Source of the DNA: a phage
Sequence record: PZ445427.1
Strand: one strand, 5' to 3'
Length of the DNA stretch: 64,000 nt
Shown here: positions 12,183 through 47,773 of the stretch, in pieces
How the letters are laid out: the number at the start of each line of letters is the position of its first letter
How positions within the stretch are numbered: position 1 is the first letter of the stretch
Translations under genes and position numbers: made by a program
The notes under the pieces: model-generated
What the model saw: only the letters and a program-made list of their open reading frames with translations
What the model was told of the DNA's origin: nothing
Database searches by the model: none

Positions 12183-12190
12183 ATAAATTT

Positions 12191-16209: not shown

Positions 16210-16218
16210 TCTGCCTCC

Positions 16219-16647: not shown

Positions 16648-16649
16648 AT

Positions 16650-18735: not shown

Positions 18736-18744
18736 TCTTGTTCC

Positions 18745-19026
18745 TTAGTTCTGTACTGTAAATTCATTCTTATCACAGTGAGCATAATAATACCCATACA
18801 TACGATAAATTTTAACAGCCTTAGTAGATCCTTTGGATTCTTCATAATCAATCCAGAGCCACTTGTCTTTACCTACATAATGTACCCGAAACTTCTTAAC
18901 TTTCTTATCATTCCATGTTGCAACAACACGACGATAATCAAATCCGCCTAACCAATCGAGAGCCTTACGTTCATCACTAGGCTCTCCAAGATGTGAAACA
19001 TCTACTTTAGGAAGCAATTCGCTCAT
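18745..19026 (-). CDS. hypothetical protein (93 aa)
   Basis: ORF with promoter cassette upstream. Confidence 0.5.
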   Translation of the reverse strand: MSELLPKVDVSHLGEPSDERKALDWLGGFDYRRVVATWNDKKVKKFRVHYVGKDKWLWIDYEESKGSTKAVKIYRMYGYYYAHCDKNEFTVQN

Positions 19027-19054
19027 AGCTTTCTCCTCTCAAATTTATAAATCA

Positions 19055-19083
19055 ATTATACATAAGTTTTAGCTCGAAAGCAA
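19055..19083 (-). promoter_or_regulatory. promoter cassette (minus strand)
   Basis: minus-strand TTGCTT-N17-TATAAT plus TGATTTATAAATTTGAGAGGAG leader. Confidence 0.6.
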
Positions 19084-29479: not shown

Positions 29480-29487
29480 TGATTGAT

Positions 29488-29501
29488 GGGGCGAAAGCCC
29501 C
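29488..29501 (+). other. GNRA-tetraloop hairpin GGGGC-GAAA-GCCCC
   Basis: perfect 5-bp stem with GAAA loop right after stop codon; no T-run. Confidence 0.5.
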
Positions 29502-29540
29502 ATATACTAACTCTTTCTCTGACTAATTAAGGATATTTTT

Positions 29541-29756
29541 ATGTTCTCTAAGAAACCACGTTCCGTTACTGAAATCGTTGCTTCCTTTACCACTATTACT
29601 GATGAACTTCAAGCTCGTATTGAAGCTGACCAGAAAACTGCTGCTGATATTCAGAAACAGCAGGAAGAACTCGCTCTGAAACTGGCTGAAACCAATAAGA
29701 GTGAAAAATCTGCTCAAACTATTAAGGAAAATATCCTTAAACTGCTGGGCAAGTAA
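29541..29756 (+). CDS. hypothetical protein (71 aa)
   Basis: ORF with host-like codon usage. Confidence 0.5.
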   Translation: MFSKKPRSVTEIVASFTTITDELQARIEADQKTAADIQKQQEELALKLAETNKSEKSAQTIKENILKLLGK

Positions 29757-29765
29757 TTTAAATCA

Positions 29766-29788
29766 GGGGGCGAAAGCCCCTCTTATTT
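29766..29788 (+). terminator. GNRA-hairpin terminator
   Basis: GGGGC-GAAA-GCCCC followed by TCTTATTT. Confidence 0.5.
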
Positions 29789-29797
29789 GGAGAAACT

Positions 29798-30010
29798 ATG
29801 CGTAACTTCGTTGCAAAGAATGATTTTAACCGTGCTAGCACTCACAAGTCTGCTAGAGACTACACTCGTCTTTCTAAACATGAGCTTCTAGAAGAAATCA
29901 TGGAAGAAAACTGGGATGTTAGTGAAAATGGAACAGACCTGTTTGAAGAAGAGGAACTTCCTCTGAAAGACCCCAAACAGTGGGAGTCTATTAAAGAGAC
30001 AGCTCTTTAA
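29798..30010 (+). CDS. hypothetical acidic protein (70 aa)
   Basis: ORF. Confidence 0.5.
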   Translation: MRNFVAKNDFNRASTHKSARDYTRLSKHELLEEIMEENWDVSENGTDLFEEEELPLKDPKQWESIKETAL

Positions 30011-30040
30011 TAGTTTTCTACAACAATAAAGGACATAATT

Positions 30041-30742
30041 ATGAAATTCAAGCCCTTTGGTATGCTGGACATTGAATCTCTAGGTACTCCAGGAAATTGC
30101 GGTACTACTCATATTGCAATGCCTTCTTTCGCTTTTGTAGCGATGCACGGAATTGATAAAGATCCTGATCTGGTATTCGTTACTCTAGACGTTCAAGATC
30201 AGCTTAATGCGGGTGCTAAGGTAACTGCCTCTACTATTGCATTCTGGATGGATCAAGCTAAAAACAGTCCATCTGCGCTCCATATTATGGAGGCTCTAAA
30301 TGGTCGTAATCCTAAACTGATTGCCTTCCGTGATGGTAAGCATCACTGCACTAATGACGTAGGCTCTAATTATGCTGCCTTCTCTATGGCTCAGAACATT
30401 ATGGAATTGTCTCTAGGAGATAATGCTCTGTATTACGGCAATGGCCCAGAGTTTGATATGACAATCTACTCTGCAAATACGTTCCATGCCGGAACCCATG
30501 AAGAAATAGTTCCGTGGAAATTCTGGAACTTAGGTAACGTTCGATCTTTCCGTAATCAGTGGATGCAAGCTGGTTATAGCTATAAAGATCTAGAAGCCGA
30601 AGGTGCTAGCTGGGCAAAAGCTAAAATGGAAAAGATGGACACCATTCGTTATGGAATCTATCCTGTGAAGCATGATCCAGCATTCGATGCTTTAGTTGAA
30701 AGTTATTGTGTAGCCGTCATGATCGAAAAAATCAAAATTTGA
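30041..30742 (+). CDS. hypothetical protein (233 aa)
   Basis: ORF with SD AAAGGA. Confidence 0.6.
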   Translation: MKFKPFGMLDIESLGTPGNCGTTHIAMPSFAFVAMHGIDKDPDLVFVTLDVQDQLNAGAKVTASTIAFWMDQAKNSPSALHIMEALNGRNPKLIAFRDGKHHCTNDVGSNYAAFSMAQNIMELSLGDNALYYGNGPEFDMTIYSANTFHAGTHEEIVPWKFWNLGNVRSFRNQWMQAGYSYKDLEAEGASWAKAKMEKMDTIRYGIYPVKHDPAFDALVESYCVAVMIEKIKI

Positions 30743-30743
30743 T

Positions 30744-30772
30744 TTGCTTTCAGCTCCAAAATTCTGTATAAT
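30744..30772 (+). promoter_or_regulatory. promoter cassette (TTGCTT-N17-TATAAT)
   Basis: -35 begins right after upstream stop. Confidence 0.6.
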
Positions 30773-30812
30773 ATATTCATAAATTTGAGAGAACAACAAA
30801 AGGAAAACAATT

Positions 30813-30995
30813 ATGCCAGTATCTAAAAACGTCCGTAAAAATGGTAAAGTAGCAAAACGTAACCTGGGTCTGCGTCGTATGGCTGAACGTCAGTCCGGCA
30901 TCCAGAAAATCTTTAACGTACTGAATCGCGCCAATCCGAATATTGATAACAGTTCTGATACTGTTCTGCGCACTCTGCTCGCAATCGGTCTGTAA
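30813..30995 (+). CDS. small basic protein (60 aa)
   Basis: ORF after promoter cassette. Confidence 0.5.
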   Translation: MPVSKNVRKNGKVAKRNLGLRRMAERQSGIQKIFNVLNRANPNIDNSSDTVLRTLLAIGL

Positions 30996-31049
30996 TAGAC
31001 CGTTTTTAAAACAAATTCAAATCTCAAACTTCATATAAGGAAGCAAATA

Positions 31050-31688
31050 ATGACTACTCGTATCTCTAAAACTCGTGCTCTGGCAACTATCAAGTCTCTG
31101 GAAGCTAAAATCCGTAAAGCTACTGAACAACAGCTTTTGATTGCTGTTGGTGAAGGTAAAGACAAGAATCAAGTTGTCGTTGGTGCTGCAATCGAAGTAG
31201 ATGCTCTGTCTACTCGTATTAAAACTGATTTCCAGTCTCTGCTGGATATGATGACCCAGCGTGATCATCTGAAAGCAGCGCTGATCAAGAGCAATGCTGA
31301 AACTGTTGTAGAGATCGGTTCCCGCTCTATGACTGTTGCGGAAGCAATCGAAGCTAAGCGTTCTATGGAACTCAAAGCTCAGTTGCTGGCTAACATGCGT
31401 AAGCAGTTCCATGCTGCTACTGTTAAGTTTAACACTCAAAAGGCTCAGTTTGATGCCAAGTATGAGCGTTTGCAGGATACCATGGCTACCCGTGACAAGA
31501 AGACTTCCGAGGATGAAGTTAAGATGCAGCTTAACCTGCTGGAACTCAAGAACACTCCGTTCCTGATCGATCCGCTGGAGCTGGAAAAGCTGATCAAGCA
31601 ACACGACGAAGAGTACCAGGACTTTGCAACCAACGTTGACTTTGTTCTGTCTGAGTCCAACGCCTCTACTTTTATCGAAGTAGAGTAA
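31050..31688 (+). CDS. hypothetical protein (212 aa), predicted helical
   Basis: ORF; three overlapping antisense/alternative ORFs judged spurious. Confidence 0.6.
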   Translation: MTTRISKTRALATIKSLEAKIRKATEQQLLIAVGEGKDKNQVVVGAAIEVDALSTRIKTDFQSLLDMMTQRDHLKAALIKSNAETVVEIGSRSMTVAEAIEAKRSMELKAQLLANMRKQFHAATVKFNTQKAQFDAKYERLQDTMATRDKKTSEDEVKMQLNLLELKNTPFLIDPLELEKLIKQHDEEYQDFATNVDFVLSESNASTFIEVE

Positions 31689-32072
31689 TAATTTAAAAGA
31701 CTAGTAAATCGGTAGACGAAAGCCCAAGCATCTTACCTCGCAGCAGCGGTTGAAATACGAGGTTAAATAAGACCGCTGACCATACTATAAAGTATAATCT
31801 ATTGGAGATTATGTTTATTACATCAGACATTTAATCTGACACGTAAAAACAAAAGGTCGTTGGTAGTACCAACACAACTTCAAAGATCAACGCTCAAGTA
31901 TGAAAGCTGAAAAGTTAAAAGCACTCAAACTTCTAACCTTCTAAAGCTAAAAGATGCAAAGTATTCGTTGATGATTCAAACCCTAGATCAAAGGTACATG
32001 GCTCATAAGATATGGCCTGTGGCGCCTCTAGGCTGTTTATCGGTTTACTAGTCTCTCAATTTAAAAATGTAT

Positions 32073-32101
32073 TTGCTAATTAGTTTAGTTTTCTATATAA
32101 T
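32073..32101 (+). promoter_or_regulatory. promoter cassette (TTGCTA-N17-TATAAT)
   Basis: ends a 440-nt ORF-free segment. Confidence 0.6.
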
Positions 32102-32131
32102 ATATTTTTAAATTGATGAGACGAGGCTATT

Positions 32132-32449
32132 ATGATTTTTCATATTCTGATTGATGATGTGCGTAACCTTCATGGAATGGACATTATCATTCGAACCCCC
32201 GAAGCCGCTGTTGAGTTTCTGAATAAAACCGATACCACAGGTCATTTCGTTTATATGGATAACGATCTGGCTGTAGATGGTATGGAAGGTTATCAAATTC
32301 TTCGTTTACTCCTAGAATTTGGTCAGAGACCCAAGAAAGTGGTACTAGTAACCTCGAACCCAGTAGCTAAAGAGACCATGCGTAATGATCTCTTAGACGA
32401 AGGGTATCAAGAAAGCCCTAATCGTATTGAGTACGATTGGCCGGAGTAA
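32132..32449 (+). CDS. hypothetical protein (105 aa), receiver-domain-like fold suspected
   Basis: ORF; weak pattern only. Confidence 0.45.
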   Translation: MIFHILIDDVRNLHGMDIIIRTPEAAVEFLNKTDTTGHFVYMDNDLAVDGMEGYQILRLLLEFGQRPKKVVLVTSNPVAKETMRNDLLDEGYQESPNRIEYDWPE

Positions 32450-32454
32450 ATAAA

Positions 32455-32904
32455 ATGAAGGCAGCTTTGCTTTTAATAGCTGCCCTAACCTATAGCTTCA
32501 ATAGTCATGCGACCTACGACTCAAAGCAGATTGATTGCATTGCAAAAAATATCTACTTCGAAGCACGAGGTGAGGGCACTAAAGGAATGATCGCAGTTGC
32601 ACAGGTTACTAAAAACCGTGTTAACTCTGGTACTTTTCCTGATTCTTACTGTAAAGTAGTATATCAGTCTAACCAGTTCTCTTGGGTGGCCAAGAGACCA
32701 AAAGTTGATAAAACCGATGAGGCTTGGCAAGTTGCTAAGAATTTAGCTAGAGTGATATACTACGTTGATTTACCACAAGATCCAACACATGGAGCGTTAT
32801 ACTTCCATAGTGGTAAAGATAAACCGTACTGGACAAAGAAGTTTAAGAAAACAACGAAGATTCAAGGCCATACGTTCTACAAGCCTGTGGTTAAGAAAAC
32901 TTAA
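32455..32904 (+). CDS. SleB-like cell-wall hydrolase with signal peptide
   Basis: signal-like MKAALLLIAALTYSFNSHA; block NIYFEARGEG...AVAQVTKNRV typical of Hydrolase_2 family. Confidence 0.55.
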   Translation: MKAALLLIAALTYSFNSHATYDSKQIDCIAKNIYFEARGEGTKGMIAVAQVTKNRVNSGTFPDSYCKVVYQSNQFSWVAKRPKVDKTDEAWQVAKNLARVIYYVDLPQDPTHGALYFHSGKDKPYWTKKFKKTTKIQGHTFYKPVVKKT

Positions 32905-32912
32905 AAATTCGA

Positions 32913-32941
32913 TTGCTTAAAGCCTTAAATTTCTGTATAAT
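32913..32941 (+). promoter_or_regulatory. promoter cassette (TTGCTT-N17-TATAAT)
   Basis: followed by conserved leader and ATG 32973. Confidence 0.6.
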
Positions 32942-32972
32942 ACTTTCATAAATTAATGAGAGGAAGCGAAAT

Positions 32973-33143
32973 ATGAAATCAGTTGTAATTATTGGTGTTA
33001 ATACTCGTGGTATCCGTACTACGAAAACAGTTAAAACTACTAACGTTGCTGAAATTACTACAAACCCTAAGAAGTTTGATTTCGCTAAAGTCTCGGCAGT
33101 TATGACAGAACAATCTTTTAACCAAGCACTGGGAATTAAATAA
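32973..33143 (+). CDS. hypothetical small protein (56 aa)
   Basis: ATG after GAGAGGAAG; stop overlaps next start (TAATG). Confidence 0.4.
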   Translation: MKSVVIIGVNTRGIRTTKTVKTTNVAEITTNPKKFDFAKVSAVMTEQSFNQALGIK

Positions 33144-33586
33144 TGGAAGAGAATATTCTAAATGTTTTGCGTAGGGCTTTGCAGGAATCTAAGGTTGATG
33201 GTTCTGATAAAGAAGTAGCTAAAAGCTACCAGACCATAATCGGAGATCTTCAGCGTGTTGATAAAGACTTCATTACTTCTGAACAGTTTGTATCTTATCT
33301 AAAAGCTCAACTGAAAAGCATTAATCAGACGAAAGCTAAACTTCACGGTCAAGACCTTGATAATTATAGCTTGCAGTCTGCTCAGTATGAGTATATACTG
33401 AACAAATGGCTACAACAGTATCTGCCGCCTCAGTTATCTGATTCTGAGATTCGCAAATACTTTGCAGAATTAGTTAAGTTGAACCCTGGGATTACAAAAG
33501 GTATGCTGATGAAAGCGATTAAGGAAGAGTTTCCTGGTCGTTACGACGGTGGCATTGCTGCTCAGGTTGCTGGCGAATTTAATTAA
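33143..33586 (+). CDS. YqeY/GatB-C-terminal-domain-like protein
   Basis: 147 aa; blocks YLPPQLSDSEIRKYF and C-terminal GxxKGxLMKAIKEE...G resemble YqeY family. Confidence 0.45.
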   Translation: MEENILNVLRRALQESKVDGSDKEVAKSYQTIIGDLQRVDKDFITSEQFVSYLKAQLKSINQTKAKLHGQDLDNYSLQSAQYEYILNKWLQQYLPPQLSDSEIRKYFAELVKLNPGITKGMLMKAIKEEFPGRYDGGIAAQVAGEFN

Positions 33587-33594
33587 AAATTGAT

Positions 33595-33623
33595 TTGCTA
33601 AACGCCTCAAAATTCTGTATAAT
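33595..33623 (+). promoter_or_regulatory. promoter cassette driving an ORF-free region
   Basis: TTGCTA-N17-TATAAT at 33595-33600/33618-33623; no start codon within normal distance. Confidence 0.6.
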
Positions 33624-33629
33624 AGATTC

Positions 33630-34482
33630 ATAAATTAGAGAACAGCGAGCCGATTACGCTGAGTGAGTTTAGTGATTCCTACTAGGATAGCTATTCCACT
33701 GAATAGAGTCGGTGAGTTGGAGACTAGTAAGTACTCTGAGAGAGGCTACGAGCTAACGCTTATTGCTATTGATAGGGAACTGAAAATCTGCGGAAAACTC
33801 GGGAGCTGTCCCGAAATCTCGTAAACTCTTCTCTAGTTTATGTTAGTGGGGTGTCGAACTGACTTATGTGATAACACTGCCGTCCTAGTATAAACGGTAA
33901 TATCAAACCGTAACTGGTGGAAGATGCAGGTTCGAATCCTGCGGTCGGAAAGAATCAGATAACTCGGGCTTATACCGGATAAGCATTCGCTGCTGGAGTA
34001 CATACTATGACGGTTCAGGAGGTACGCCACCTGATCAGTATTAGGTTAGAATCGAAACAGCTAAACCACGAGGAAACCTGACGGCCTCAACCAAACTCGG
34101 AACTCGGGATCACTGCCTAGTGTGTGCCCCGTTTAACCTGAGACTAGGCATCCAGCTTCGCATCGAAAATCGGAGGTGCGATTCTAACAGACCGCGTGAA
34201 TATGAGAGTGGGAAACGCTGACATGAGAGATGTCACTAATGGTGCCCAATAGTACAGGTAATTCGCGATAATTCCTGTTGAGCGGCAGCAGTAGGCTGGG
34301 AGTCATGACCTAAGCCTAACCGAGTTCTTCACATACGGAGAACATAACCACAAAGTCACCCTGACTTAAACTGGAAGATATTGTCTGACGGAAGGGCTGC
34401 AGAGCTTAATCTGAGGGGGCTGACCCTACCTACCGTCGGGTATCTTTAAGAGCTTTTATAAGAGTTCTTAAAAATACCTAAA
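33630..34482 (+). ncRNA. candidate large structured non-coding RNA (about 850 nt), class unknown
   Basis: no plus-strand ORF >=60 aa; balanced composition unlike AT-rich spacers; hairpins (e.g. GCCTAGT...ACTAGGC); three AACTCGGG repeats; internal partial tRNA copy. Confidence 0.45.
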
Positions 34483-34557
34483 CGGGGTGTAGTCTAAGGG
34501 ATAGGCAGGAGTCTTCTAAATTCCTTTATGCAGGTTCGAATCCTGTCACCTCGGCCA
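34483..34557 (+). tRNA. tRNA-Arg (anticodon UCU)
   Basis: acceptor CGGGGTG/CACCTCG; anticodon stem GGAGT/ATTCC with loop CTTCTAA; T-arm GCAGG-TTCGAAT-CCTGT; CCA encoded. Confidence 0.7.
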
Positions 34558-34583
34558 ATTTTATTAACTGCTAGGAAAATAAA

Positions 34584-34784
34584 GTGAAAACACGATATAT
34601 AGTAAAAGTAGTAGGTGAACATTCACAAGTAAATACCACCGATGTTACAGCGCTAGCATTTGAAGTAGTCTCCGGTATAGTCATATTTCATAACGGAGAT
34701 ATCAAAGCTCCTGAATTTGCTGTGGATGCTAGCCTGTTTATTTCTGCAACTAAAGTAACTGTAGTAGCTAACTCTTCTAAATAA
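34584..34784 (+). CDS. hypothetical protein (66 aa)
   Basis: ORF with SD AGGAAAATAAAG. Confidence 0.4.
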   Translation: MKTRYIVKVVGEHSQVNTTDVTALAFEVVSGIVIFHNGDIKAPEFAVDASLFISATKVTVVANSSK

Positions 34785-34795
34785 TAAGGAAATAT

Positions 34796-35740
34796 ATGTT
34801 TACTAAAAACACTAAAGAACTGACTTCCGATCAAAAAGTAATTCGTACTATTAAACGTTGGGGTGTTGGTGCTGTAGTTGGTCTTGGCGCTCTTATTCTG
34901 GCTCTCAATTCCTACACAGTTGTTCAGGATGGTACTGTTAAGACTCAAACCTTCCTGGGTAAAGTTAGCCCGAACCCTGTACTGCCAGGCTTCCATATTG
35001 TTAACCCATTTGCTTCTTTTGATACTTTTAGTACGAAAGATATTTCTATGAAACTGGATAAACTTCAGGTTCCTAGCCAGGATAAGTTTAAGTCTACTGT
35101 TGACATTACCGTTATGTTGCAGTTTGATGGTGCTAAAGCTCCTATGAACCGTGTTAACGCAGGTACTCAGGATCAGGCTCTGAACAAGTACGTTGAAGAG
35201 AAGATGCTATCTACGATTCGTGAGTTTGGTAAGTCTGTACCAAAAGCACAAGATCTGTTCGACGCTAAGATTCAGGCTCAACTGCAAACTGCTATTCAGC
35301 AAGAAGTAGAGGAGTATGCGCGTCCTTATGGTTACACCGTTAAGCAAGTATTCCTTCAGGATATTACTCTGCCACCGGTAATCATGGAACAGGTACAGAA
35401 CACCAAAGTTCGTGAAGAACAAGTTAACGCTGCAAAAGCTGAACTGGCTCGTGTTGAACAAGAAGCACAACAGAAAGTTAAGCAAGCTGAGGCAGATCGT
35501 TCTGCTCGTGAAAACATGGCAGTAGCTAACGAACGTGACGCAGATGCTAAACTGTACGCAGCTAAGAAAGAAGCTGAAGCTAACGCCGCTCTGCAACGTA
35601 CCATTACTCCTGAAATGATTCGTTGGAAGCAGCTGGAAGTTGAAATGCTTCGTGCTGAAAAATACCAAGGTGGTGTACCGCAGACTGTTGTTGGTACTGG
35701 CTATGATGGTCAAATGATCATGGATATGCGTAACAAGTAA
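34796..35740 (+). CDS. SPFH/band-7 (HflK/C-, prohibitin-like) membrane protein
   Basis: 314 aa; N-terminal TM helix, SPFH-like core, long Ala/Glu/Gln-rich coiled-coil tail. Confidence 0.65.
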   Translation: MFTKNTKELTSDQKVIRTIKRWGVGAVVGLGALILALNSYTVVQDGTVKTQTFLGKVSPNPVLPGFHIVNPFASFDTFSTKDISMKLDKLQVPSQDKFKSTVDITVMLQFDGAKAPMNRVNAGTQDQALNKYVEEKMLSTIREFGKSVPKAQDLFDAKIQAQLQTAIQQEVEEYARPYGYTVKQVFLQDITLPPVIMEQVQNTKVREEQVNAAKAELARVEQEAQQKVKQAEADRSARENMAVANERDADAKLYAAKKEAEANAALQRTITPEMIRWKQLEVEMLRAEKYQGGVPQTVVGTGYDGQMIMDMRNK

Positions 35741-35763
35741 TAGTTACACGTAATCTTCGAACC

Positions 35764-35798
35764 AAGCCCGCGTTTCCTCCGAGAGCGCGGGCTTTTCT
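35764..35798 (+). terminator. rho-independent terminator
   Basis: GCCCGCG...CGCGGGC hairpin followed by TTTTCTGT. Confidence 0.6.
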
Positions 35799-35814
35799 GT
35801 ATTTAAGACAAAAG

Positions 35815-35850
35815 AAAAGCCCCTTACCTTTCGGCAGGGGCTTTGTTTTT
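35815..35850. terminator. bidirectional terminator between convergent transcription units
   Basis: GCCCCTT...AGGGGC hairpin flanked by T-runs on both strands. Confidence 0.6.
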
Positions 35851-36057
35851 GGTTTAGAACCATATACTCTTGTTACAGCAACCACCCATACGGGAGACCA
35901 ATCTTGACTGAAAATCTACTCTAGGGGGCAGGATAAGAGTAGGCTTAAAGGCAAACGGATTGAACACCGGTATTTGCGTAAACATTGCTGGAGAGCAACA
36001 ACGTGCTACAGGCATTGGGCAGCATGATGTAGGTTTTCTACAACACATATAAACTCC

Positions 36058-36477
36058 TTAGGATTTCTCCCCATTTTGCGCTTTTGCAACTTGACTTTGA
36101 CAGAAACTATTAAACTTACCCATAAGTGAAACAAGTTGCTTCCCATCCTCTGTTTTAGCGAAGTCTTCGAAAAGGGCTAGAACAGCCTGTCCTTCCGCAG
36201 ATACCTGCGGTTGTTGGGTTTGTTGAGTCATCTGCTGCTGTGGTTGCATTTGCTGAGGCATCATCTGCTGAGGCACCATTTGTTGCATTTGCATTTGCGG
36301 CTGCATTTGCATCTGGTTGATGTTTCCCTGCGGGTTTTGCAGGGAATTTTGCATTTGCTGTGCTTCTGCCAATCTCTGTTGCAACTGTTGTAAGTAGGGG
36401 TTATCCAGCCCCGGAACGGGCTGCTGGGAGCCCATACTTTGATTAAATCCGTTGTTCACAAAACCATATTTACTCAT
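36058..36477 (-). CDS. Gln/Met-rich low-complexity protein (139 aa)
   Basis: about 40% Q in central region (QMQPQMQMQQMVPQQMMPQQMQPQQQ); structured C-terminus. Confidence 0.55.
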   Translation of the reverse strand: MSKYGFVNNGFNQSMGSQQPVPGLDNPYLQQLQQRLAEAQQMQNSLQNPQGNINQMQMQPQMQMQQMVPQQMMPQQMQPQQQMTQQTQQPQVSAEGQAVLALFEDFAKTEDGKQLVSLMGKFNSFCQSQVAKAQNGEKS

Positions 36478-36499
36478 GATGGGCTCCTCCCCTTAATTA

Positions 36500-37495
36500 T
36501 TAAGCCGGCAGTTTAGCCTGCAGACCAGCCAGAGTCTGAGTGATAGCACCAAGACTTACAGCGATTTGGTTGATTACCTGACCGTTAGCACCGCTACCCT
36601 GAGCGATAGCTTCACGCAGACGGCATTCGTTCAGTTCGTCCTGAATACGCGCAGTAGTTACACCAGCGATTGCAGACTGAAGTTCACAGCAGCATTCAGC
36701 GATCTGACGTTCCAGAGCGTTCTGGTTAGCACAAGCCTGAGCAGCTACAGCAGCGAACTGGTTGTTAGTCTGGATAGACTGAGCAAACATGATCTGAGCG
36801 GTATCGAACTTGTCTTGAGCACGTGCGATCTGGTTAGCAGCGAAAGCTTGATCCATTTGACGAGAAAGATCGAACTGACCCTGAATAACATTACGAGTTT
36901 CCTGACAGATCTGGTTGGACAGGTTAGCACCAGTACCGTAGATCGTAGTCAGAAGCTGTTGAGTACTAGCAGCTTGAGCAGCTCCTACACCATTTACTGC
37001 ACTCAGAACAGCACCAGTACCCTGATTAGCTTCAGTACGAGTAGTGTTGATTGCAGCTAGAATACTTGCAGTATCCTGGTTAGAAAGGATCGCATCCACA
37101 GCAGTTCCCTCAGCGGCAACACCAGCACCGCGGCCAAAACCACCGAAACCACCGAATCCGCCTGTTAATAGAGCACCGATTAGGATAGCTCCGAATAGAC
37201 CCATACCTTCACCACCGAAAGCACCATTAGCAACTGCTGGGTAACCACCCATTAGGCCAGGGAAGCCACTAGTGAATACGTTTACTGGTTCTTGCATTTT
37301 ATGTTTTCCATGTTTATGACAATGTTCATCATCGTCATCTTCTTCATCATTTTCATCGTGTTCACGATGTTCTTTTTCGTAGGCCTTGACCTTCTCCCAC
37401 TTTTTCTTGTCTGATTCTTCGTGACGACGCAGTTCTGCTGCTACGCCAGCGACCGTATCAGGACTCTTAGCTACTTCTTCTGTCATTTTTGACAC
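36500..37495 (-). CDS. membrane protein with His/acidic N-terminus and glycine-zipper segment (331 aa)
   Basis: HREHDENDEEDDDDEHCHKHGKH; Gly-zipper GGFGGFGGFGRG with hydrophobic stretch; Ala/Gln-rich C-terminal half with CCCELQ. Confidence 0.55.
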   Translation of the reverse strand: MSKMTEEVAKSPDTVAGVAAELRRHEESDKKKWEKVKAYEKEHREHDENDEEDDDDEHCHKHGKHKMQEPVNVFTSGFPGLMGGYPAVANGAFGGEGMGLFGAILIGALLTGGFGGFGGFGRGAGVAAEGTAVDAILSNQDTASILAAINTTRTEANQGTGAVLSAVNGVGAAQAASTQQLLTTIYGTGANLSNQICQETRNVIQGQFDLSRQMDQAFAANQIARAQDKFDTAQIMFAQSIQTNNQFAAVAAQACANQNALERQIAECCCELQSAIAGVTTARIQDELNECRLREAIAQGSGANGQVINQIAVSLGAITQTLAGLQAKLPA

Positions 37496-37547
37496 CTCCT
37501 AGTATATAGAAAATGTGTGTCTCTTTGATCACTCATCCATATCATAT

Positions 37548-37576
37548 ACTTTACATTACCCCAGCGAAAATGTCAA
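37548..37576 (-). promoter_or_regulatory. sigma70-like promoter for the 37495..36058 operon (minus strand)
   Basis: minus-strand TTGACA-N17-TAAAGT, then AGGAGGTG SD and ATG 37495. Confidence 0.5.
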
Positions 37577-37692
37577 GGGGTCTTTAAAAATTGCCCCCGG
37601 ATTTTTAGTGGGGTAACAATTTCTGGACTTCACCACTCACCTGCTACCCTTAAGTGCCCTGCGATTTTCCACTAAAAAGTTTAAAAATTCGA

Positions 37693-37721
37693 TTGCTTGA
37701 ATGCTAAATTCTCTGTATAAT
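37693..37721 (+). promoter_or_regulatory. promoter cassette (TTGCTT-N17-TATAAT)
   Basis: leader AAATTTGAGAGAGGAATCAAAT then ATG 37752. Confidence 0.6.
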
Positions 37722-37751
37722 ATATTTATAAATTTGAGAGAGGAATCAAAT

Positions 37752-38807
37752 ATGATTAAGACTGGTCTAGTAATTGGTAAGTTCGCACCATTAACGCGTG
37801 GTCATATTAACCTAATAAACACAGCAGCAACTATGTGTGAACGAGTTATTGTTGTAGTTAGTCATGATAATCGTTGGCTGGATAAGCAGAACACACGTGA
37901 TCAGGAAGTATTACAGTTAAAGAATCGACTTCGTTGGTTAGAACAAACTTACGCGGATATTGAGCACATTTCGGTAGAGTACATTATTGAAGATGATATT
38001 CCTGAATATCCGAATGGTTGGCCGGAATATGCTAGAATCCTTAATGAAAATTACGGACATTTGCCTGAGATCACCATTTTCTCTAGCGAACTAGACTATG
38101 ATGCAGAATATAAGAAATATCTGCCGAAGTTTGGTCATTATATTGTAGATTCTGATCGGACTCGTGTTCCAATCTCAGCTACAATGATTCGTAATGATCT
38201 TATGAAGTATTGGGAGTTTCTTCCTAGCGTAGTTCGTAAAGATTACGTGCGTAAGGTTGTAATCATTGGGACTGAAAGCTCGGGAAAGACTACTTTAACA
38301 AAATACCTTGCGAAGCTATACAACACTTCGTGGGTAGAAGAATATGGCCGAACGTATTGTGAAGTTGATCTAGTTGGTAACGAAAATCTACTTACCAGTG
38401 AAGATTATAGTAAAATTGCGTTCAGACACAAAGAGCTAGAGTTTGAAGCAGAACGTACTGCAAATAAGATCATGTTTGTGGATACAAATGCTTTTATTAC
38501 TGAGTTCTACCACAGACTTTATGAACATCGTAAGAATCCTGTGGTTACAGCAATTGCAAAAGAAGAACATTACGATTTAGTAATTGTTCTAGCGCCTACT
38601 GTTAAGTGGGTAGATGATGGTTTACGTATTAACTCCGATCGTTCAATTACTTCTGAACTGTTCGAGCAGATGAAGAAAGAATTTCCAAATCAGTTCCCTG
38701 AAGGGCGTACTGTTTACATCGACTCCCCGGACTACAAAGTTCGTATGGACGAAGCAGTAAACGCAGTAGACTGGCTGATTCATCACTTTAACGTTGGAGA
38801 GTTTTAA
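37752..38807 (+). CDS. NadR-like bifunctional NMN adenylyltransferase / ribosylnicotinamide kinase
   Basis: nucleotidyltransferase motif GKFAPLTRGH; Walker A IIGTESSGKTTL (compare NadR GGESSGKS); start at internal ATG after SD. Confidence 0.7.
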   Translation: MIKTGLVIGKFAPLTRGHINLINTAATMCERVIVVVSHDNRWLDKQNTRDQEVLQLKNRLRWLEQTYADIEHISVEYIIEDDIPEYPNGWPEYARILNENYGHLPEITIFSSELDYDAEYKKYLPKFGHYIVDSDRTRVPISATMIRNDLMKYWEFLPSVVRKDYVRKVVIIGTESSGKTTLTKYLAKLYNTSWVEEYGRTYCEVDLVGNENLLTSEDYSKIAFRHKELEFEAERTANKIMFVDTNAFITEFYHRLYEHRKNPVVTAIAKEEHYDLVIVLAPTVKWVDDGLRINSDRSITSELFEQMKKEFPNQFPEGRTVYIDSPDYKVRMDEAVNAVDWLIHHFNVGEF

Positions 38808-40745: not shown

Positions 40746-40896
40746 AATTAAGGAAATAAAATGAAAGCTATTAAGAAAGCACTACGTAAATTTATGTACT
40801 GTCGTTTCCATAGTATTAAGGCTTCAACTAATGGTACGACTTACGATCGCTATGATCCTAAGTTTGGCTTACATTCTAAATAACTGGAGATAATAA

Positions 40897-41103
40897 ATGG
40901 CTAATCCTGAAATTACTGCACAGCGCTTTATGCTGAAAGGTATTATTGCTGAAGCAGGCATGACAGAAGAAGTTGCAGATTTTCAAAAGCAGTTCCTAAA
41001 TATTCTCACTCAAGCCAAAGAGCTAGGAGAGAAAGAACATGGCGCGGCTATTATGGCAATCACATTGGTTGGGCTTGATCTGGCAGAAGAATCAGGAGTT
41101 TAA
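40897..41103 (+). CDS. hypothetical protein (68 aa)
   Basis: ORF. Confidence 0.45.
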   Translation: MANPEITAQRFMLKGIIAEAGMTEEVADFQKQFLNILTQAKELGEKEHGAAIMAITLVGLDLAEESGV

Positions 41104-41133
41104 CTCCTCCAAGCAGAAATTTTAAAAATGTAC

Positions 41134-41163
41134 TTGCTTTTTACTTAAGATTTCTGCTATAAT
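41134..41163 (+). promoter_or_regulatory. promoter cassette (TTGCTT-N18-TATAAT)
   Basis: upstream of 41194 gene. Confidence 0.55.
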
Positions 41164-41193
41164 AGTTATATAAATTGATGAAGGAGTTAACGA

Positions 41194-41469
41194 ATGTCAA
41201 AACGTGTTACTTCAACTGGTGTTGAAAGTGCTGTTTGTAAATCCTGGGGTGGCTGGGAAGGTGAGATTGAATGGCTTTATTTCTACGATGTAGAACTTCT
41301 GCCGGAAGTCAAAGCTAAATGTGTGGAAGCTGGTATGGCTCCTGATGCAAAGGCTGATATCGAAATCACCATGACTAAGCTAGAAGGTCGTGTAATTACG
41401 CTCAATGATGATTATGAAGAAGTGTTCGAGCTTCCATTCAAACTGAGTGTCACTCCTAGCTTCGAGTAA
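41194..41469 (+). CDS. hypothetical protein (91 aa)
   Basis: ORF after promoter. Confidence 0.5.
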   Translation: MSKRVTSTGVESAVCKSWGGWEGEIEWLYFYDVELLPEVKAKCVEAGMAPDAKADIEITMTKLEGRVITLNDDYEEVFELPFKLSVTPSFE

Positions 41470-41505
41470 CTGATATAGCACTGAGCAAGTTCTTTAAAAT
41501 TTGAC

Positions 41506-41534
41506 TTGCTCAGTCCTTCAAAACTTGATATAAT
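41506..41534 (+). promoter_or_regulatory. promoter cassette (TTGCTC-N17-TATAAT) driving tRNA-Tyr
   Basis: hexamers 41506-41511 / 41529-41534. Confidence 0.55.
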
Positions 41535-41599
41535 ATTTATCTAATTTGGAAACATATTTAAAAGTGTTTAAATGAGAATTTTTGAATACTTCTAAATAT

Positions 41600-43091: not shown

Positions 43092-43167
43092 CGACCGTTG
43101 GCTGAATGGCTTAGGCGGAGGCCTGCAAAACCTCCTTATGTGAGTTCGAATCTCATGCGGTCGTCCA
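43092..43167 (+). tRNA. tRNA-Cys (anticodon GCA)
   Basis: acceptor CGACCGT/GCGGTCG; anticodon loop CTGCAAA (stem GAGGC/ACCTC with one mismatch); T-arm GTGAG-TTCGAAT-CTCAT; CCA encoded. Confidence 0.6.
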
Positions 43168-43174
43168 AATTTTA

Positions 43175-43257
43175 GGGTCGTTAGCCAAGCGGTTTGGCGG
43201 TGGACTGTTAATCCATGTCGAAAGACAACGTAGGTTCGAATCCTACACGGCCCGCCA
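43175..43257 (+). tRNA. tRNA, anticodon GUU (Asn-type) with unusually long variable arm
   Basis: acceptor GGGTCGT/ACGGCCC; anticodon stem GTGGA/TCCAT loop CTGTTAA; 13-nt variable hairpin; T-arm GTAGG-TTCGAAT-CCTAC; CCA encoded. Confidence 0.55.
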
Positions 43258-43360
43258 TATTCTGTGTAGAGTTAAGTAAACCGGTAGCCAACCAGCTATC
43301 ATTGCTGATATCGAATTCAGTCACAGATACCATTTTTCATTAACAACTGAGGAAATAGAT

Positions 43361-43546
43361 ATGACAACTCGTGCAATTGCTCGACTAGAAGCTGATCGTG
43401 ATAGTCTGATTAATAATATTAAGGTTTGGGATCAAGAAATTGAAAACCAAAAACTGACATTAATTCAAGATATGCAACAACAGAATGCCCGTCGTGAAGC
43501 TCTAAAAGAGGTTGAGGAAGCTATCGAAAAACTCAAAACTGAGTAA
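43361..43546 (+). CDS. hypothetical coiled-coil protein (61 aa)
   Basis: ORF with SD GAGGAAATAG. Confidence 0.45.
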   Translation: MTTRAIARLEADRDSLINNIKVWDQEIENQKLTLIQDMQQQNARREALKEVEEAIEKLKTE

Positions 43547-43794: not shown

Positions 43795-43905
43795 TCATTC
43801 TAGCGTGGTGGAGAGGGGACACCAGCTTGCCGAGGGTAGAAGCTCGTTCGATTCGAGTGAAAGAATGGTTCTCGTAAATCCGCACAAGTGATAGTAGGTT
43901 CAAGT
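43795..43905 (+). other. unresolved tRNA-like structured segment
   Basis: contains T-arm-like GCTCG-TTCGATT-CGAGT and GTAGG-TTCAAGT-CCTAC but no acceptor pairing at tRNA spacing. Confidence 0.3.
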
Positions 43906-43927
43906 CCTACCTAGATTGACTCATTAT

Positions 43928-44001: not shown

Positions 44002-44249
44002 AATTTAGGTTTCTGCTTCCTAGAGAACTGACTCCTAGATAAACAAGGCGATGAGTTTCCGGCCGGTTCTAGTCGCTGAAAATCCTCCCGACCAGGTAGG
44101 TGTAAGTAAACGAAAGTTTACTTATTAAGTAAGTCCGACACATCGGCGGGTGTGTTCTAGTACTTAAAGAAGGTCTCGCAAACTTTCTCGCTAGCATGAG
44201 TTGATAGCTCGGTGACTTACCTAATAAGTAAATTTATTAAAAAATGTAG

Positions 44250-45299: not shown

Positions 45300-45659
45300 T
45301 TGCAAATGCAATTATCAAGCAAGGTTCAAGGCTATTTCGGGCATGTAACAATGGAGTTCGCTATCTCTAAAGGTTGGGACTTCGAACAAGATCTAGCTGA
45401 ATTCTACAAAGATATTGATCTGAATGTACCGTACATAGGACTCTCTACTGGTCAAGAGATCACAGAAGGCGATGTGTTCAAGGCAAGTCAAGGTGAGGTA
45501 ACACCTAGTTTTGCCGAGTTCTGGTTAGGTATTACTTTGAAAGAAGATGCACCGGATGGTGGTGTGGTTATGCAGAGTATGCACTCTGGAAGCTCTGACT
45601 ACCTTTTCGTTAGTGACGTTAAGGAAATACAAGAAATCTGCAAAAATGTACTTGCTTGA
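45300..45659 (+). CDS. hypothetical protein (119 aa)
   Basis: ORF. Confidence 0.5.
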   Translation: MQMQLSSKVQGYFGHVTMEFAISKGWDFEQDLAEFYKDIDLNVPYIGLSTGQEITEGDVFKASQGEVTPSFAEFWLGITLKEDAPDGGVVMQSMHSGSSDYLFVSDVKEIQEICKNVLA

Positions 45660-45680
45660 TGCTTAATTTCTTGTTATAAT
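45652..45680 (+). promoter_or_regulatory. promoter cassette followed by about 245-nt leader
   Basis: TTGCTT-N17-TATAAT; next ATG only at 45924. Confidence 0.55.
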
Positions 45681-45923
45681 ATTTATATAAATTGATGGGG
45701 AGAAATCCTCATCAAAGTTCACTAAGGTATTAGCTCGACCTAGGACTGGCTGCCAAAAAGCACGATCCCTACGACTTGGGAGAAGTTCTAGATTAGTCCA
45801 CTAGATTCAGTGGCAACTGAATAGTGTATCGGGTTTGTGAAGAGCGGTTATCCTCTACTGGCTAATGTCTGAGGGTAATACGCACACCGAGCTAATAGCC
45901 TTAGTAAACTAGAAGGAATATCT

Positions 45924-46187
45924 ATGTTTGATCTTAAAGATATGGCTAAGAAACTAATGTCGCAACGTTATCAACAAAGAACCCTCCATAAACGAGTTTC
46001 CGATATGAAGAAACGTTGCAATAATGCTAAGTATTATAATAGTCTTAATAAACTATCTGATGTAGATCTTGCTAAAACTGAAGCAATATATAATCACTTA
46101 GTAGTAGAATCTGATATAGTGAATAAAGATATTGCTAGGCTAGAAGCTCAGATTGTAGCAACTGTTCTCGATATGTATAGAGAATAA
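45924..46187 (+). CDS. hypothetical protein (87 aa)
   Basis: ORF with SD AGAAGGAATATC. Confidence 0.5.
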   Translation: MFDLKDMAKKLMSQRYQQRTLHKRVSDMKKRCNNAKYYNSLNKLSDVDLAKTEAIYNHLVVESDIVNKDIARLEAQIVATVLDMYRE

Positions 46188-46196: not shown

Positions 46197-46275
46197 GGGG
46201 AATGGGTCTGCATGGAGTGGACACCTCGCTTGCACCGAGGACATCAGAACGGTTCGATTCCGTTATTCTCCACCA
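46197..46275 (+). tRNA. tRNA-Ala (anticodon UGC), copy 1
   Basis: acceptor GGGGAAT/ATTCTCC with G3-U70; anticodon stem CCTCG/CGAGG loop CTTGCAC; T-arm AACGG-TTCGATT-CCGTT; CCA encoded. Confidence 0.55.
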
Positions 46276-47415: not shown

Positions 47416-47560
47416 AATCTTGAAGTATGCCGGAATCGGTAGACGGGGCTTCCTAAAGGGCGTAAGGGGAACATCCACTCCTCATAAGATACCCGAAAAC
47501 GAGGCTGAGATAAATGGTCTATCTCGTGAAGGTTCAAGTCCTTCTGCTTCTTGATATTCA
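47416..47560 (+). other. unresolved tRNA-like structured segment
   Basis: Leu-type D-arm-like CCGGAATCGGTAGACGGGG and T-arm GAAGG-TTCAAGT-CCTTC, but no acceptor or anticodon arm at tRNA spacing. Confidence 0.3.
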
Positions 47561-47773
47561 ATGGCTCAAAGAGTAACGGTGCACCTTTCTAGAGAATTTC
47601 CTGGGCGAGAATCCAGGTGTAATCAACTAGTTGTTAGTGTGATGAGTTTCGGAGAGCCGCCACAATTGAAAATTCGTACTCGTCTTGAGCTTCGTGCAAT
47701 AGAAGATAACTTGATTAGTATTCTAGAAAATGCTATTTGAGGATGGTTTCGCTAACCCTGCGAGTTTTCAATT

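What the first reader, a model, noticed from the sequence alone, without database searches (positions are those of the whole stretch)
45652..45923. Promoter cassette followed by about 245-nt untranslated leader
Seen in sequence: the conserved promoter at 45652-45680 is followed by a leader ending ...ATTGATGGGGAGAAATCCTCATC (the usual SD is replaced by a small hairpin), and the next plausible start codon is at 45924. Inference: the leader may encode a small RNA or cis-regulatory structure; the same reasoning applies to the ORF-free stretch 31690-32070 that ends in a promoter.
Basis: partly seen in the sequence, partly recalled or inferred. Interest (0 to 1): 0.4.

Follow-up and report, generated by a model that had tools for sequence, protein, structure and literature searches.

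The report
T5 RNA2H stable RNA gene ortholog
The "untranslated leader" is a separate, strongly conserved, pseudoknotted non-coding RNA gene in the tRNA cluster of a T5-like phage, the counterpart of the RNA annotated in phage T5 as "RNA2H, stable RNA with unknown functions"; its existence is already on record, but its fold and wider distribution were not, and its function is still unknown.

Summary
A T5-type sigma-70 promoter (45652-45680) is followed by 243 nt with no ORF of 20 aa or more on either strand, then an 87-aa ORF at 45924.

The stretch is not the leader of that ORF. It is the ortholog of T5 promoter P13b plus misc_RNA rna2H (AY543070 31808..31979). In T5, oselot and Sugarland the same RNA is followed directly by tRNA-Ala, so the ORF is a later insertion.

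The element spans 45716-45910. It has:
- a 21-bp closing helix P1 with an invariant bulged G;
- a 5-bp long-range helix that crosses a 5-bp hairpin (a pseudoknot or a switch);
- hairpins P3, P4 and P5;
- invariant single strands CAAAA.RCAC and AGUGUA.

On 42 distinct sequences, 96% of cells pair and 35 of 49 pairs show compensatory changes. G.U outnumbers A.C 174 to 15, which places the structure on the + strand.

A covariance model finds the family in four lineages: Markadamsvirinae, Sugarlandvirus, Pectobacterium phage My1, and one further IMG/VR genome. There is no Rfam match and no E. coli genome match.

T5's annotated ends fall on P1 with a two-base-pair stagger, which suggests RNase III-type excision. 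T5 deletion mutants lacking the RNA are viable. Function is unknown.

The parts
45652..45680 (+). T5-type early sigma-70 promoter (-35 TTGCTT 45652-57, 17-nt spacer, -10 TATAAT 45675-80). The inferred +1 is near 45687-88. It is the homolog of T5 'promoter P13b'.
   Evidence: Conserved in T5-like, Sugarland and My1 copies.
45692..45715 (+). 5'-terminal hairpin UUGAUGGGGA-GAAA-UCCUCAUCAA (10 bp). It sequesters the SD-like GGGGAG/GAGGAG of the standard promoter-leader cassette and lies about 4 nt from the inferred 5' end.
   Evidence: fold. Variants keep the stem: G.U, loop inversion GAAA to UUUC, and a 110-nt insertion in bombadil. Analogous SD-containing hairpins occur in My1 (GUUAAGGAGA/UCUCCUUAAC) and L088 (GGGGAG/CUCCCC). 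Absent in Sugarland.
45716..45910 (+). The whole RNA2H-family element, from the 5' strand to the 3' strand of closing helix P1 (195 nt).
   Evidence: Covariance model R1: 228.6 bits, E 1.6e-61, the only copy in the window. Alignments A2 and A4.
45728..45900 (+). Predicted mature stable RNA (173 nt), obtained by transferring the T5 rna2H annotation: 5' UAUUAGCUCG...CGAGCUAAUAGCC 3'.
   Evidence: 96.5% identity to T5 rna2H over its first 113 nt. The ends are inferred from the T5 record and were not measured here.
45716..45737 (+). P1 5' strand: AGUU-C-ACUAAGG-UAUUAGCUCG.
   Evidence: P1 is 99.9% paired, and 11 of its 21 pairs show compensatory changes. Pairing checked in 8 representatives.
45888..45910 (+). 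P1 3' strand: CGAGCUAAUA-G-CCUUAGU-A-AACU. It carries an invariant bulged G (45898) and invariant GCCU.
45743..45747 (+). X (GGACU), the 5' strand of the long-range helix X:Z.
   Evidence: 100% paired, 4 of 5 pairs compensatory. GGACU:AGUCC (T5-like), GAGCC:GGCUC and GAGUC:GACUC (Sugarland type), GAGUC:GGCUC (My1), GAACC:GGUUC (L088).
45753..45763 (+). Conserved A-rich single strand CCAAAAAGCAC (family consensus CAAAA.RCAC).
45766..45781 (+). P3 hairpin (UCCC/GGGA). Variable in length, and replaced by longer branched stems in 26175I, bombadil and Sugarland.
   Evidence: 100% paired, 3 of 4 pairs compensatory.
45787..45805 (+). Hairpin ii (UCUAG 45787-91 / CUAGA 45801-05). Its 9-nt loop contains Z (AGUCC 45795-99), which pairs with X, giving a crossing (pseudoknot) topology.
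   Evidence: Four different stem sequences at the same place: UCUAG:CUAGA, CGG(AG):(CU)CCG, CUGGA:UCCAG, UUCCG:CGGAA. T5-like against Sugarland counted.
45806..45821 (+). P4 hairpin UUCAG-UGGCAA-CUGAA. The loop ends in GYAA in all four lineages.
45823..45828 (+). Invariant single-stranded AGUGUA.
45837..45887 (+). P5, a long irregular hairpin closed by GNG/CNC flush with P1. It comes in two unrelated sequence versions (EPS7/Sugarland type here, T5 type elsewhere).
   Evidence: the base pair is C-G, U-A or A-U; 10 of 11 inner pairs are compensatory.
45924..46187 (+). Context, not part of the RNA. This is an 87-aa ORF with its own SD (AAGGA 45913-17), inserted between the RNA and tRNA-Ala (46197-46275) in only a subset of Epseptimaviruses.
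   Evidence: No PHROG family.

Best explanation
The stretch is an RNA gene, the Epseptimavirus ortholog of phage T5 RNA2H.

Shown:
- Host-type sigma-70 promoter signals sit 36 nt upstream of the element.
- The element folds into a conserved multi-helix structure: P1, the crossing helices X:Z and hairpin ii, P3, P4 and P5, plus invariant single strands.
- The structure is maintained by compensatory substitutions in four Demerecviridae lineages.
- It always lies inside the tRNA cluster, on the tRNA strand. A tRNA (Ala or Leu-UAG) follows immediately unless a small ORF has been inserted.

Inferred:
- It is transcribed early as the first unit of a polycistronic precursor: hairpin, RNA2H, (ORF), tRNA-Ala, tRNA-Ala and so on.
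- The 5' hairpin hides the SD-like sequence of the promoter cassette and caps the 5' end.
- The RNA is cut out within the roughly 21-bp P1 helix at the invariant GG^U / A-G-CC^U site. Transferring the T5 annotation gives a 173-nt RNA with a 10-bp terminal stem and a GCC 3' tail. That two-base-pair stagger is what RNase III leaves. RNase P with 3' trimming of a tRNA-like NCC end is the alternative.
- The excised, compact, pseudoknotted RNA then acts in trans, most likely by binding a specific host or phage protein linked to tRNA or RNA metabolism or to host defence. It is an accessory function, not an essential one.
For: - Identity: 86-99.6% blastn matches in 505 phage records, and the T5 match lies under 'rna2H: RNA2H | promoter'. 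T5 features are P13b and misc_RNA rna2H 'stable RNA with unknown functions'.
- Not the ORF's leader: in oselot, T5 and Sugarland, tRNA-Ala follows directly.
- Structure: z = -5.2. On A2, 89.8% of cells pair and 20 pairs are compensatory, against at most 6 when partners are slid. On A4, 96.2% pair and 35 of 49 pairs are compensatory, against at most 12 when slid and 0 of 500 shuffles. Helices verified base by base in 8 representatives of 4 lineages.
- Strand: 174 G.U against 15 A.C cells.
- Selection: the core is 97-99.7% identical among 34 distinct Markadamsvirinae sequences, while P3 and P5 are 66-73%.
- Wider family: My1 56 bits, E 1e-13; L088 95.8 bits. Each is followed by tRNA-Leu(UAG).
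- Non-coding: no ORF of 20 aa or more. Indels of 22-27 nt are hairpin swaps.
- Processing: T5's annotated ends map to U13 and to the CC after the bulged G.
- Dispensable: T5Mos (deletion 30661-38625) and T5-123 (deletion 29191-32442) both span 31808-31979 and are described as non-essential deletions (PMC11464382). FFH1 has lost the core by a GCUCGA microhomology deletion.
Against: - No transcript data for this phage were available. The mature ends are transferred from a GenBank annotation whose experimental basis I could not check.
- RNase III cleavage is inferred from geometry alone. The same ends fit an RNase P / NCC(A) tRNA-like model.
- X:Z and hairpin ii cross, so they may alternate rather than coexist.
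- Covariation comes from few independent events: four lineages plus a few within-lineage changes. A4 was also fitted to the model.
- Nothing indicates which partner the RNA binds. Loss of the RNA has no reported phenotype.
- FFH1 keeps only P1 and the P5 tip, and pVp-1 has a long hairpin upstream of tRNA-Leu(UAG). Both would also fit a mainly cis-acting processing role.
Confidence: 0.8

Rival explanations
1. The element acts mainly in cis, as a processing and stability module of the tRNA operon. On this reading the long P1 helix is an RNase III site that releases the downstream tRNA or mRNA with a short leader and caps the transcript's 5' end. The structured core would be a passenger or folding aid, and the excised RNA would have no trans function.
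For: - A tRNA starts 2-20 nt after P1 in T5, Sugarland, My1 and L088.
- P1 carries invariant nucleotides at the presumed cut site.
- FFH1 retains a perfect P1 hairpin after losing the core.
- Vibrio phage pVp-1 has only a long hairpin, a weak model hit with E 0.028, directly upstream of tRNA-Leu(UAG).
- T5 mutants lacking the RNA are viable.
Against: - A passenger would not keep 97-99.7% identity in its core, or invariant single strands across four lineages, while P3 and P5 drift.
- The pseudoknot helices covary.
- T5 annotates the product as a stable RNA.
- In the window and its relatives an ORF separates the RNA from the tRNA, yet the RNA's conservation is not relaxed.
Confidence: 0.2
2. The stretch is a cis-regulatory leader, such as a riboswitch, attenuator or thermometer, controlling the ORF at 45924.
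For: The ORF lies 13 nt after P1, and the fold is compact and pseudoknotted like an aptamer.
Against: - The ORF is missing in most relatives, and bombadil has a different one.
- The SD AAGGA (45913-17) lies outside every conserved helix.
- No terminator-like site lies between 45681 and 45923.
- No Rfam riboswitch family matches, even at E up to 10.
Confidence: 0.04
3. The stretch is a degenerate tRNA or a tRNA-like pseudogene, or the remnant of a mobile element such as an intron or a homing-endonuclease cassette, left in the tRNA cluster.
For: It sits in a tRNA cluster that also holds HNH endonuclease genes in T5. The terminal stem plus GCC tail looks like an acceptor end. P3, hairpin ii and P4 can be drawn as a cloverleaf-like three-hairpin junction.
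Against: - ARAGORN and the Rfam tRNA, tmRNA and group I/II intron models give nothing here. In contrast, T5 rna1 scores 24 bits on the tRNA model.
- There is no similarity to the other T5 stable RNAs.
- Strong purifying selection and covariation argue against a decaying remnant.
Confidence: 0.04
4. The stretch encodes a small protein, or it is a DNA-level element such as an origin, a nick site or a protein-binding array, rather than an RNA.
For: Some Sugarlandvirus records annotate minus-strand 'hypothetical protein' or 'putative tail protein' CDSs across the homolog.
Against: - No ORF of 20 aa or more in the window copy.
- Those CDSs are not conserved outside one lineage.
- Substitutions are compensatory within helices, and G.U greatly exceeds A.C. 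That is a strand-specific RNA signature which a DNA element or a coding frame would not produce.
Confidence: 0.02

Closest known systems
Phage T5 RNA2H (misc_RNA rna2H, AY543070 31808..31979, downstream of promoter P13b)
   Same: Direct ortholog. It has the same promoter, 5' hairpin and P1, and 96.5% identity over the first 113 nt. The position is the same: after tRNA-Val and before tRNA-Ala and tRNA-Leu.
   Different: The P5 hairpin is a different sequence version (EPS7/Sugarland type). An 87-aa ORF is inserted between the RNA and tRNA-Ala. The T5 record gives no structure or function.
Other stable RNAs of the T5 tRNA region (RNA1, RNA2, RNA3, RNAI, RNAIII, RNAIV) and, from my own memory and not checked here, the T4 'species 1 and 2' RNAs of the T4 tRNA cluster
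   Same: They are small stable RNAs of unknown function, encoded among phage tRNA genes, co-transcribed with them, and closed by pairing of the 5' and 3' ends. Most have homologs in this window.
   Different: There is no sequence similarity to RNA2H. RNA1, RNA2 and RNA3 are called tRNA-like, and rna1 scores on the tRNA model; RNA2H does not. RNA2H is larger and pseudoknotted.
RNase III processing hairpins of phage early transcripts (such as T7 R1.1 to R6.5) and of rRNA operons. This comparison rests on general knowledge.
   Same: A helix of about 20 bp formed by flanking sequences of a polycistronic early transcript. The inferred cuts are staggered by two base pairs.
   Different: Here the helix encloses a 150-nt conserved structured RNA instead of a small loop. 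Cleavage was not tested.
Large ornate phage-associated RNAs found next to tRNA genes (GOLLD, ROOL) and bacterial Y-RNA-like YrlA. This comparison rests on general knowledge.
   Same: They are structured non-coding RNAs of unknown or recently emerging function that sit beside tRNA genes in phage genomes. Y RNAs also have a long terminal stem with a conserved bulge.
   Different: They differ greatly in size (GOLLD and ROOL are 500-800 nt). No Rfam family scores on any of four lineages at E up to 10. No Ro/Rsr link was tested.

Membership tests
T5 RNA2H stable-RNA family | Sequence homology to T5 rna2H | tested here: met
   blastn gives 86% over 231 nt to AY543070 under rna2H and 96.5% over nt 1-113. 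The covariance model scores the window copy at 228.6 bits and T5 at 228.7 bits.
T5 RNA2H stable-RNA family | Same genomic context: P13b-type promoter upstream, within the tRNA cluster, on the tRNA strand | tested here: met
   The only difference is an inserted 87-aa ORF before tRNA-Ala.
T5 RNA2H stable-RNA family | Accumulates as a discrete stable RNA of about 172 nt in infected cells | not testable with these tools
   Known only from the GenBank feature note. No paper on RNA2H was found in the library.
tRNA / tRNA-like RNA | Cloverleaf recognised by tRNA models | tested here: not met
   ARAGORN finds 29 tRNAs, none in 45681-45923. The Rfam tRNA clan has no match there at E up to 10 in four lineages.
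tRNA / tRNA-like RNA | Acceptor-like end (paired termini plus N-CC(A) tail) that is processed by RNase P and can receive CCA | tested here: inconclusive
   A 10-bp terminal stem followed by G-CC exists and is invariant. However, the CC is paired with GG in the precursor, no A is encoded, and no enzymology was possible.
Riboswitch / cis-regulatory 5' leader | Conserved linkage to the regulated downstream gene, with an expression platform (terminator or SD sequestration) | tested here: not met
   The downstream ORF is absent or different in relatives. There is no terminator-like site in the stretch. The SD at 45913-17 lies outside the fold.
RNase III substrate | About two turns (20 bp or more) of mostly regular dsRNA | tested here: met
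   P1 has 4+7+10 bp with one bulge and one 1x1 mismatch. It reaches 24 bp in Sugarland and covaries.
RNase III substrate | Cleavage by RNase III leaving 2-nt 3' overhangs | not testable with these tools
   The only indication is that T5's annotated ends are staggered by two base pairs on P1.
Any curated Rfam family (6S, Y RNA/YrlA, tmRNA, RNase P, ribozymes, riboswitches, GOLLD, ROOL and others) | Score against the family covariance model | tested here: not met
   There are no matches at gathering score. At E up to 10 only two chance snoRNA hits appear over the promoter and hairpin. Nothing is found over the homologs in T5, Sugarland, KpnLmqsRe28-2 and L088.
H-type (permuted) pseudoknot | Two crossing helices, each supported by covariation | tested here: met
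   X:Z is 100% paired with 4 of 5 pairs compensatory. Hairpin ii has four different stem sequences in four lineages. Whether the two form at the same time cannot be tested here.

The most novel reading that the evidence does not exclude
RNA2H would define a distinct, so far uncurated class of phage RNA. It would be a compact pseudoknotted fold, conserved across at least four Demerecviridae lineages, cut out of tRNA-operon precursors at a sequence-specific site. It would have a specific molecular activity. Possibilities are a decoy or inhibitor for a host RNA-targeting defence or a tRNA-processing enzyme, a small-molecule- or protein-sensing switch (X can pair with alternative partners), or an acceptor-like NCC(A) RNA that enters tRNA pathways.
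Probability: 0.3. Interest if true: 0.7.

Novelty: already known. Interest (0 to 1): 0.38.

Why it matters
The small stable RNAs of T5-like phages have been in the T5 sequence record since at least 2005 without any assigned function. This one is present in more than 400 sequenced phages of E. coli, Salmonella and Klebsiella, many of them candidates for phage therapy. In nearly all of those records it is unannotated or overwritten by spurious CDSs.

The work here gives it a testable consensus structure, a probable processing site, a covariance model, and a distribution that reaches Pectobacterium phage My1. That is the material needed for an Rfam family and for targeted experiments. For the scan itself, the finding is a correct detection of a known but obscure RNA gene, not a new kind of element.

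Tried and rejected
1. Rfam at gathering score and at E up to 10, on the window and on four lineages: no family.
2. ARAGORN: no tRNA or tmRNA in the stretch.
3. Paralogy with the other T5 stable RNAs: only 7-20-nt chance matches.
4. Host origin: no blastn match in 5,426 complete E. coli genomes. The model rejected all 80 loci that were returned (best 11.7 bits, E about 1); the rest were not screened.
5. More distant relatives by motif scans of IMG/VR and JGI metagenomes: only T5-like and Sugarland-like sequences, My1 and one new lineage, L088.
6. Vibrio phage pVp-1: no convincing homolog, even with filters off. There is only a long hairpin upstream of tRNA-Leu(UAG), at 10.6 bits.
7. The minimum-free-energy helix 'P2' (X:Y, 45740-47 with 45784-91): rejected as the conserved pairing, because 5 of its 8 pairs break in Sugarland while X:Z is kept everywhere.
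8. Single-sequence folding to assign the strand: uninformative, with z = -4.4 on both strands. The G.U to A.C ratio settled it.
9. Literature: no paper mentioning RNA2H or the function of T5 stable RNAs in the searchable library. Only the PARIS paper gave deletion-mutant information.
10. PHROGs for the downstream ORF: no family.

Full report
**What the window is.** The window carries 29 tRNA genes on the + strand between 34.5 and 49.4 kb. It is 94-99.6% identical to Epseptimavirus genomes such as EPS7 and GEC_vB_N7, which are T5-like phages of the family Demerecviridae.

**The observation.**
- TTGCTT-17 nt-TATAAT lies at 45652-45680.
This exact 29-mer is unique.
- Downstream there is no ORF of 20 aa or more in any frame until ATG 45924.
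It starts about 4 nt after the inferred +1.
- The 245-nt transcript folds with z = -5.2.

**What it is.** A blastn search with 45681-45923 finds 505 phage records. The T5 hit lies under 'rna2H: RNA2H | promoter'. The T5 record AY543070 annotates promoter P13b, then misc_RNA rna2H (31808..31979, 172 nt, 'stable RNA with unknown functions'), then tRNA-Ala and tRNA-Leu. The alignment places the window homolog of the annotated RNA at 45728-45900.

In T5, oselot and Sugarland the RNA is followed directly by tRNA-Ala. The 87-aa ORF at 45924 is present in only a subset of relatives: 32 of 728 records cover at least 80% of the 1.1-kb query. Bombadil has a different ORF there. So the stretch is an RNA gene of the tRNA operon, not the leader of that ORF.

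**Anatomy.** This was worked out from 33, then 46, homologs (alignments A2 and A4) and checked base by base in eight representatives.
- **P1.** Pairs 45716-37 with 45888-45910: 4+7+10 bp with a 1x1 mismatch and a bulged G (45898).
- **X:Z.** X (GGACU, 45743-47) pairs with Z (AGUCC, 45795-99).
- **Hairpin ii.** Z lies in the 9-nt loop of hairpin ii (UCUAG 45787-91 / CUAGA 45801-05), so the two helices cross.
- **P3.** 45766-81, a variable hairpin. In 26175I, bombadil and Sugarland it is replaced by longer branched stems.
- **P4.** 45806-21, with a loop ending in GYAA in every lineage.
- **P5.** 45837-87, a 50-nt irregular hairpin. Its base pair is C-G, U-A or A-U in different phages, and its body exists in two unrelated sequence versions.
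- **Invariant single strands.** CAAAA.RCAC (45754-63) and AGUGUA (45823-28).

**Support for the fold.**
- On A2 (MAFFT, not fitted to any structure), 89.8% of cells pair and 20 pairs show changes on both sides. Slid controls give at most 6, and 0 of 500 shuffles reach the observed value.
- On A4 (aligned to the model, so biased towards it), 96.2% of cells pair and 35 of 49 pairs are compensatory, against at most 12 when slid.
- X:Z is 100% paired, with four of five pairs compensatory.
- Hairpin ii has four different stem sequences in four lineages.
- The helix chosen by single-sequence folding (X with 45784-91) breaks in Sugarland and is therefore not the conserved partner.
- In Markadamsvirinae, Y and Z look like a tandem duplicate (AGUUCUAGAUU | AGUCCACUAGAUU). 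This leaves open an alternative conformer.
- The connecting loops are 2-4 nt between hairpin ii's 5' strand and Z, and 0-1 nt between Z and its 3' strand. That fits a circularly permuted H-type pseudoknot with the two helices stacked. This last point is my geometric reasoning, not a computed result.
- Helices contain 174 G.U cells against 15 A.C cells, so the structure belongs to the + strand RNA. Single-sequence z-scores could not tell the strands apart.

**Selection.** Among 34 distinct Markadamsvirinae sequences the core segments are 97-99.7% identical, while P3 and P5 are 66-73%. Several nucleotides inside P1 are invariant in all lineages although their neighbours covary: AGUU..U.AGG..U and GCCU.A..AAA.U. 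This points to sequence-specific recognition.

**Distribution.**
- Model R1 finds one copy in the window.
- It finds a full-length, unannotated copy in Pectobacterium phage My1, subfamily Mccorquodalevirinae (56 bits, E 1e-13).
- It finds a copy in a 106-kb IMG/VR genome, L088 (95.8 bits).
- In both of those the RNA is followed by tRNA-Leu(UAG) and preceded by a hairpin that pairs an SD-like GGAG.
- My1 also has a TTGCTT-17 nt-TATAAT promoter.
- Motif scans of IMG/VR, JGI metagenomes and 185,579 prokaryotic genomes add no other lineage.
- E. coli genomes have no match.
- Vibrio phage pVp-1 has only a long hairpin upstream of tRNA-Leu(UAG).
- No Rfam family matches any lineage.

**How it probably works.**
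- **Shown:** the promoter signals, the fold, the strand, the tRNA-operon context, and the absence of coding capacity.
- **Inferred, transcription:** early transcription from the P13b-type promoter as the first unit of a polycistronic precursor.
- **Inferred, the 5' hairpin:** other promoters of the family are followed by AAATTGA..GAGG and a start codon, for example 32073-32134. Here the same purine tract is paired with CCUC. I read the 5' hairpin as SD sequestration plus 5'-end protection.
- **Inferred, excision:** T5's annotated 5' end is the U that opens the 10-bp inner part of P1. Its 3' end is the CC that follows the bulged G and pairs with the GG just upstream of that U. Cuts staggered by two base pairs on a helix of 21-24 bp are what RNase III produces. 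I could not check how those ends were determined. A G-CC tail on a paired terminus also fits RNase P processing of a tRNA-like end.
- **Function:** what the excised RNA does is unknown. The conserved compact fold and invariant loops favour specific binding of a protein or ligand.
- **Dispensability:** two viable T5 deletion mutants (deletions 30661-38625 and 29191-32442) lack the gene. The cloned fragments other than the tRNA-Lys fragment did not rescue PARIS sensitivity. Fragment 1 (31885-32870) carried only the 5' half of RNA2H (PMC11464382). FFH1 has lost the core through a GCUCGA microhomology deletion while keeping P1. The function is therefore accessory.

**Rivals.**
- A purely cis-acting processing module is the main rival. 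It is supported by the FFH1 and pVp-1 hairpins and by the tRNA that always follows. The extreme conservation of the core and the covarying pseudoknot argue against it.
- A riboswitch or leader of the ORF is contradicted by the variable downstream gene and the lack of any expression platform.
- A degenerate tRNA, a small protein and a DNA element are each contradicted.

It folds with z = -5.5 and has a closing helix of about 20 bp. It is 95% identical to an unannotated T5 gap, 43142-43504, and is conserved in about 440 records. It looks like another structured-RNA candidate, but I did not test covariation.

**Verdict.** This is a correct detection of a real RNA gene that is already annotated in T5, so it is not new in kind. 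The consensus fold, the probable processing site, the wider distribution and the absence from Rfam are new details. The function remains an open, testable question.

Noticed in passing
It folds at -100 kcal/mol with z = -5.5, and a closing helix of about 20 bp (31698-31717 with about 32037-32054) encloses about 320 nt. It is 95% identical to an unannotated T5 gap (AY543070 43142-43504) and is conserved in about 440 T5-like phages. It is a candidate structured RNA or other conserved non-coding element.
   Followed up: partly
window 43260-43332, 43796-43920, 44134-44185, 47419-47562, 47667-47772: These are homologs of the other T5 'stable RNAs of unknown function': rna3 (97%), rna2 (88%), rnaIV (partial, 81%), rna1 (81%) and rnaIII (96%). 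They fill ORF-free gaps between tRNA genes. rnaI gave no blastn hit.
   Followed up: partly
window 33879-33950 (+): Rfam's tRNA model scores 29.3 bits here, just above gathering, but ARAGORN calls nothing. The T5 record annotates a 719-nt 'RNAX stable RNA' (40848-41566), whose equivalent should lie around here.
   Followed up: no
L078 (Pectobacterium phage My1, NC_018837) 14366-14555 and about 14279-14363, minus strand: There is an unannotated RNA2H-family RNA here. Directly after it is an unannotated tRNA-Leu(UAG), which ARAGORN finds in the IMG/VR copy L087 at 936-1020. Both lie in a gap between My1_054 and My1_055.
   Followed up: yes
L004 1349-1537, L060 317-466, L061 367-465 (Sugarlandvirus records): CDSs annotated on the opposite strand ('hypothetical protein', 'putative tail protein') lie across the RNA2H homolog. 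They are not conserved outside this lineage and are probably spurious calls.
   Followed up: partly
L059 (Klebsiella phage vB_Kpn_3, MZ079855) about 295-520: This is a chimeric copy: the 5' half and core are Sugarland type, while P5 and the P1 3' strand are EPS7 type. The two P1 strands can no longer pair. It is either a natural recombinant with a broken RNA or an assembly chimera.
   Followed up: partly
L006 (phage FFH1, NC_024139) about 1025-1095: The core of the RNA is deleted between two GCTCGA repeats, one at the end of P1 and one in the P5 loop. This leaves an 80-nt perfect hairpin made of P1 plus the P5 tip, upstream of tRNA-Ala.
   Followed up: yes
L005 (bombadil) 890-1010; also L010, L022, L075: About 110 nt of unrelated, structured-looking sequence is inserted into the top of the 5' hairpin, whose stem is kept and lengthened (AAAUUGAUG/CAUCAAUUU). 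I did not examine what the insert is.
   Followed up: no
L079 (Vibrio phage pVp-1) 29141-29220 (+): A long hairpin (AGUUAUCUUUUG.../...CAAAAGAUAAUU) lies directly upstream of tRNA-Leu(UAG). It is a weak hit of the RNA2H model (10.6 bits, E 0.028). It may be a minimal relative of P1 or may be coincidence.
   Followed up: partly
window 8539-19083 (- strand) and 21250-62277 (+ strand): The 26 TTGCT-N18-TATAAT promoter-like sites switch strand between about 19 and 21 kb: 5 lie on the - strand and 21 on the + strand. This marks a divergent transcription boundary.
   Followed up: no
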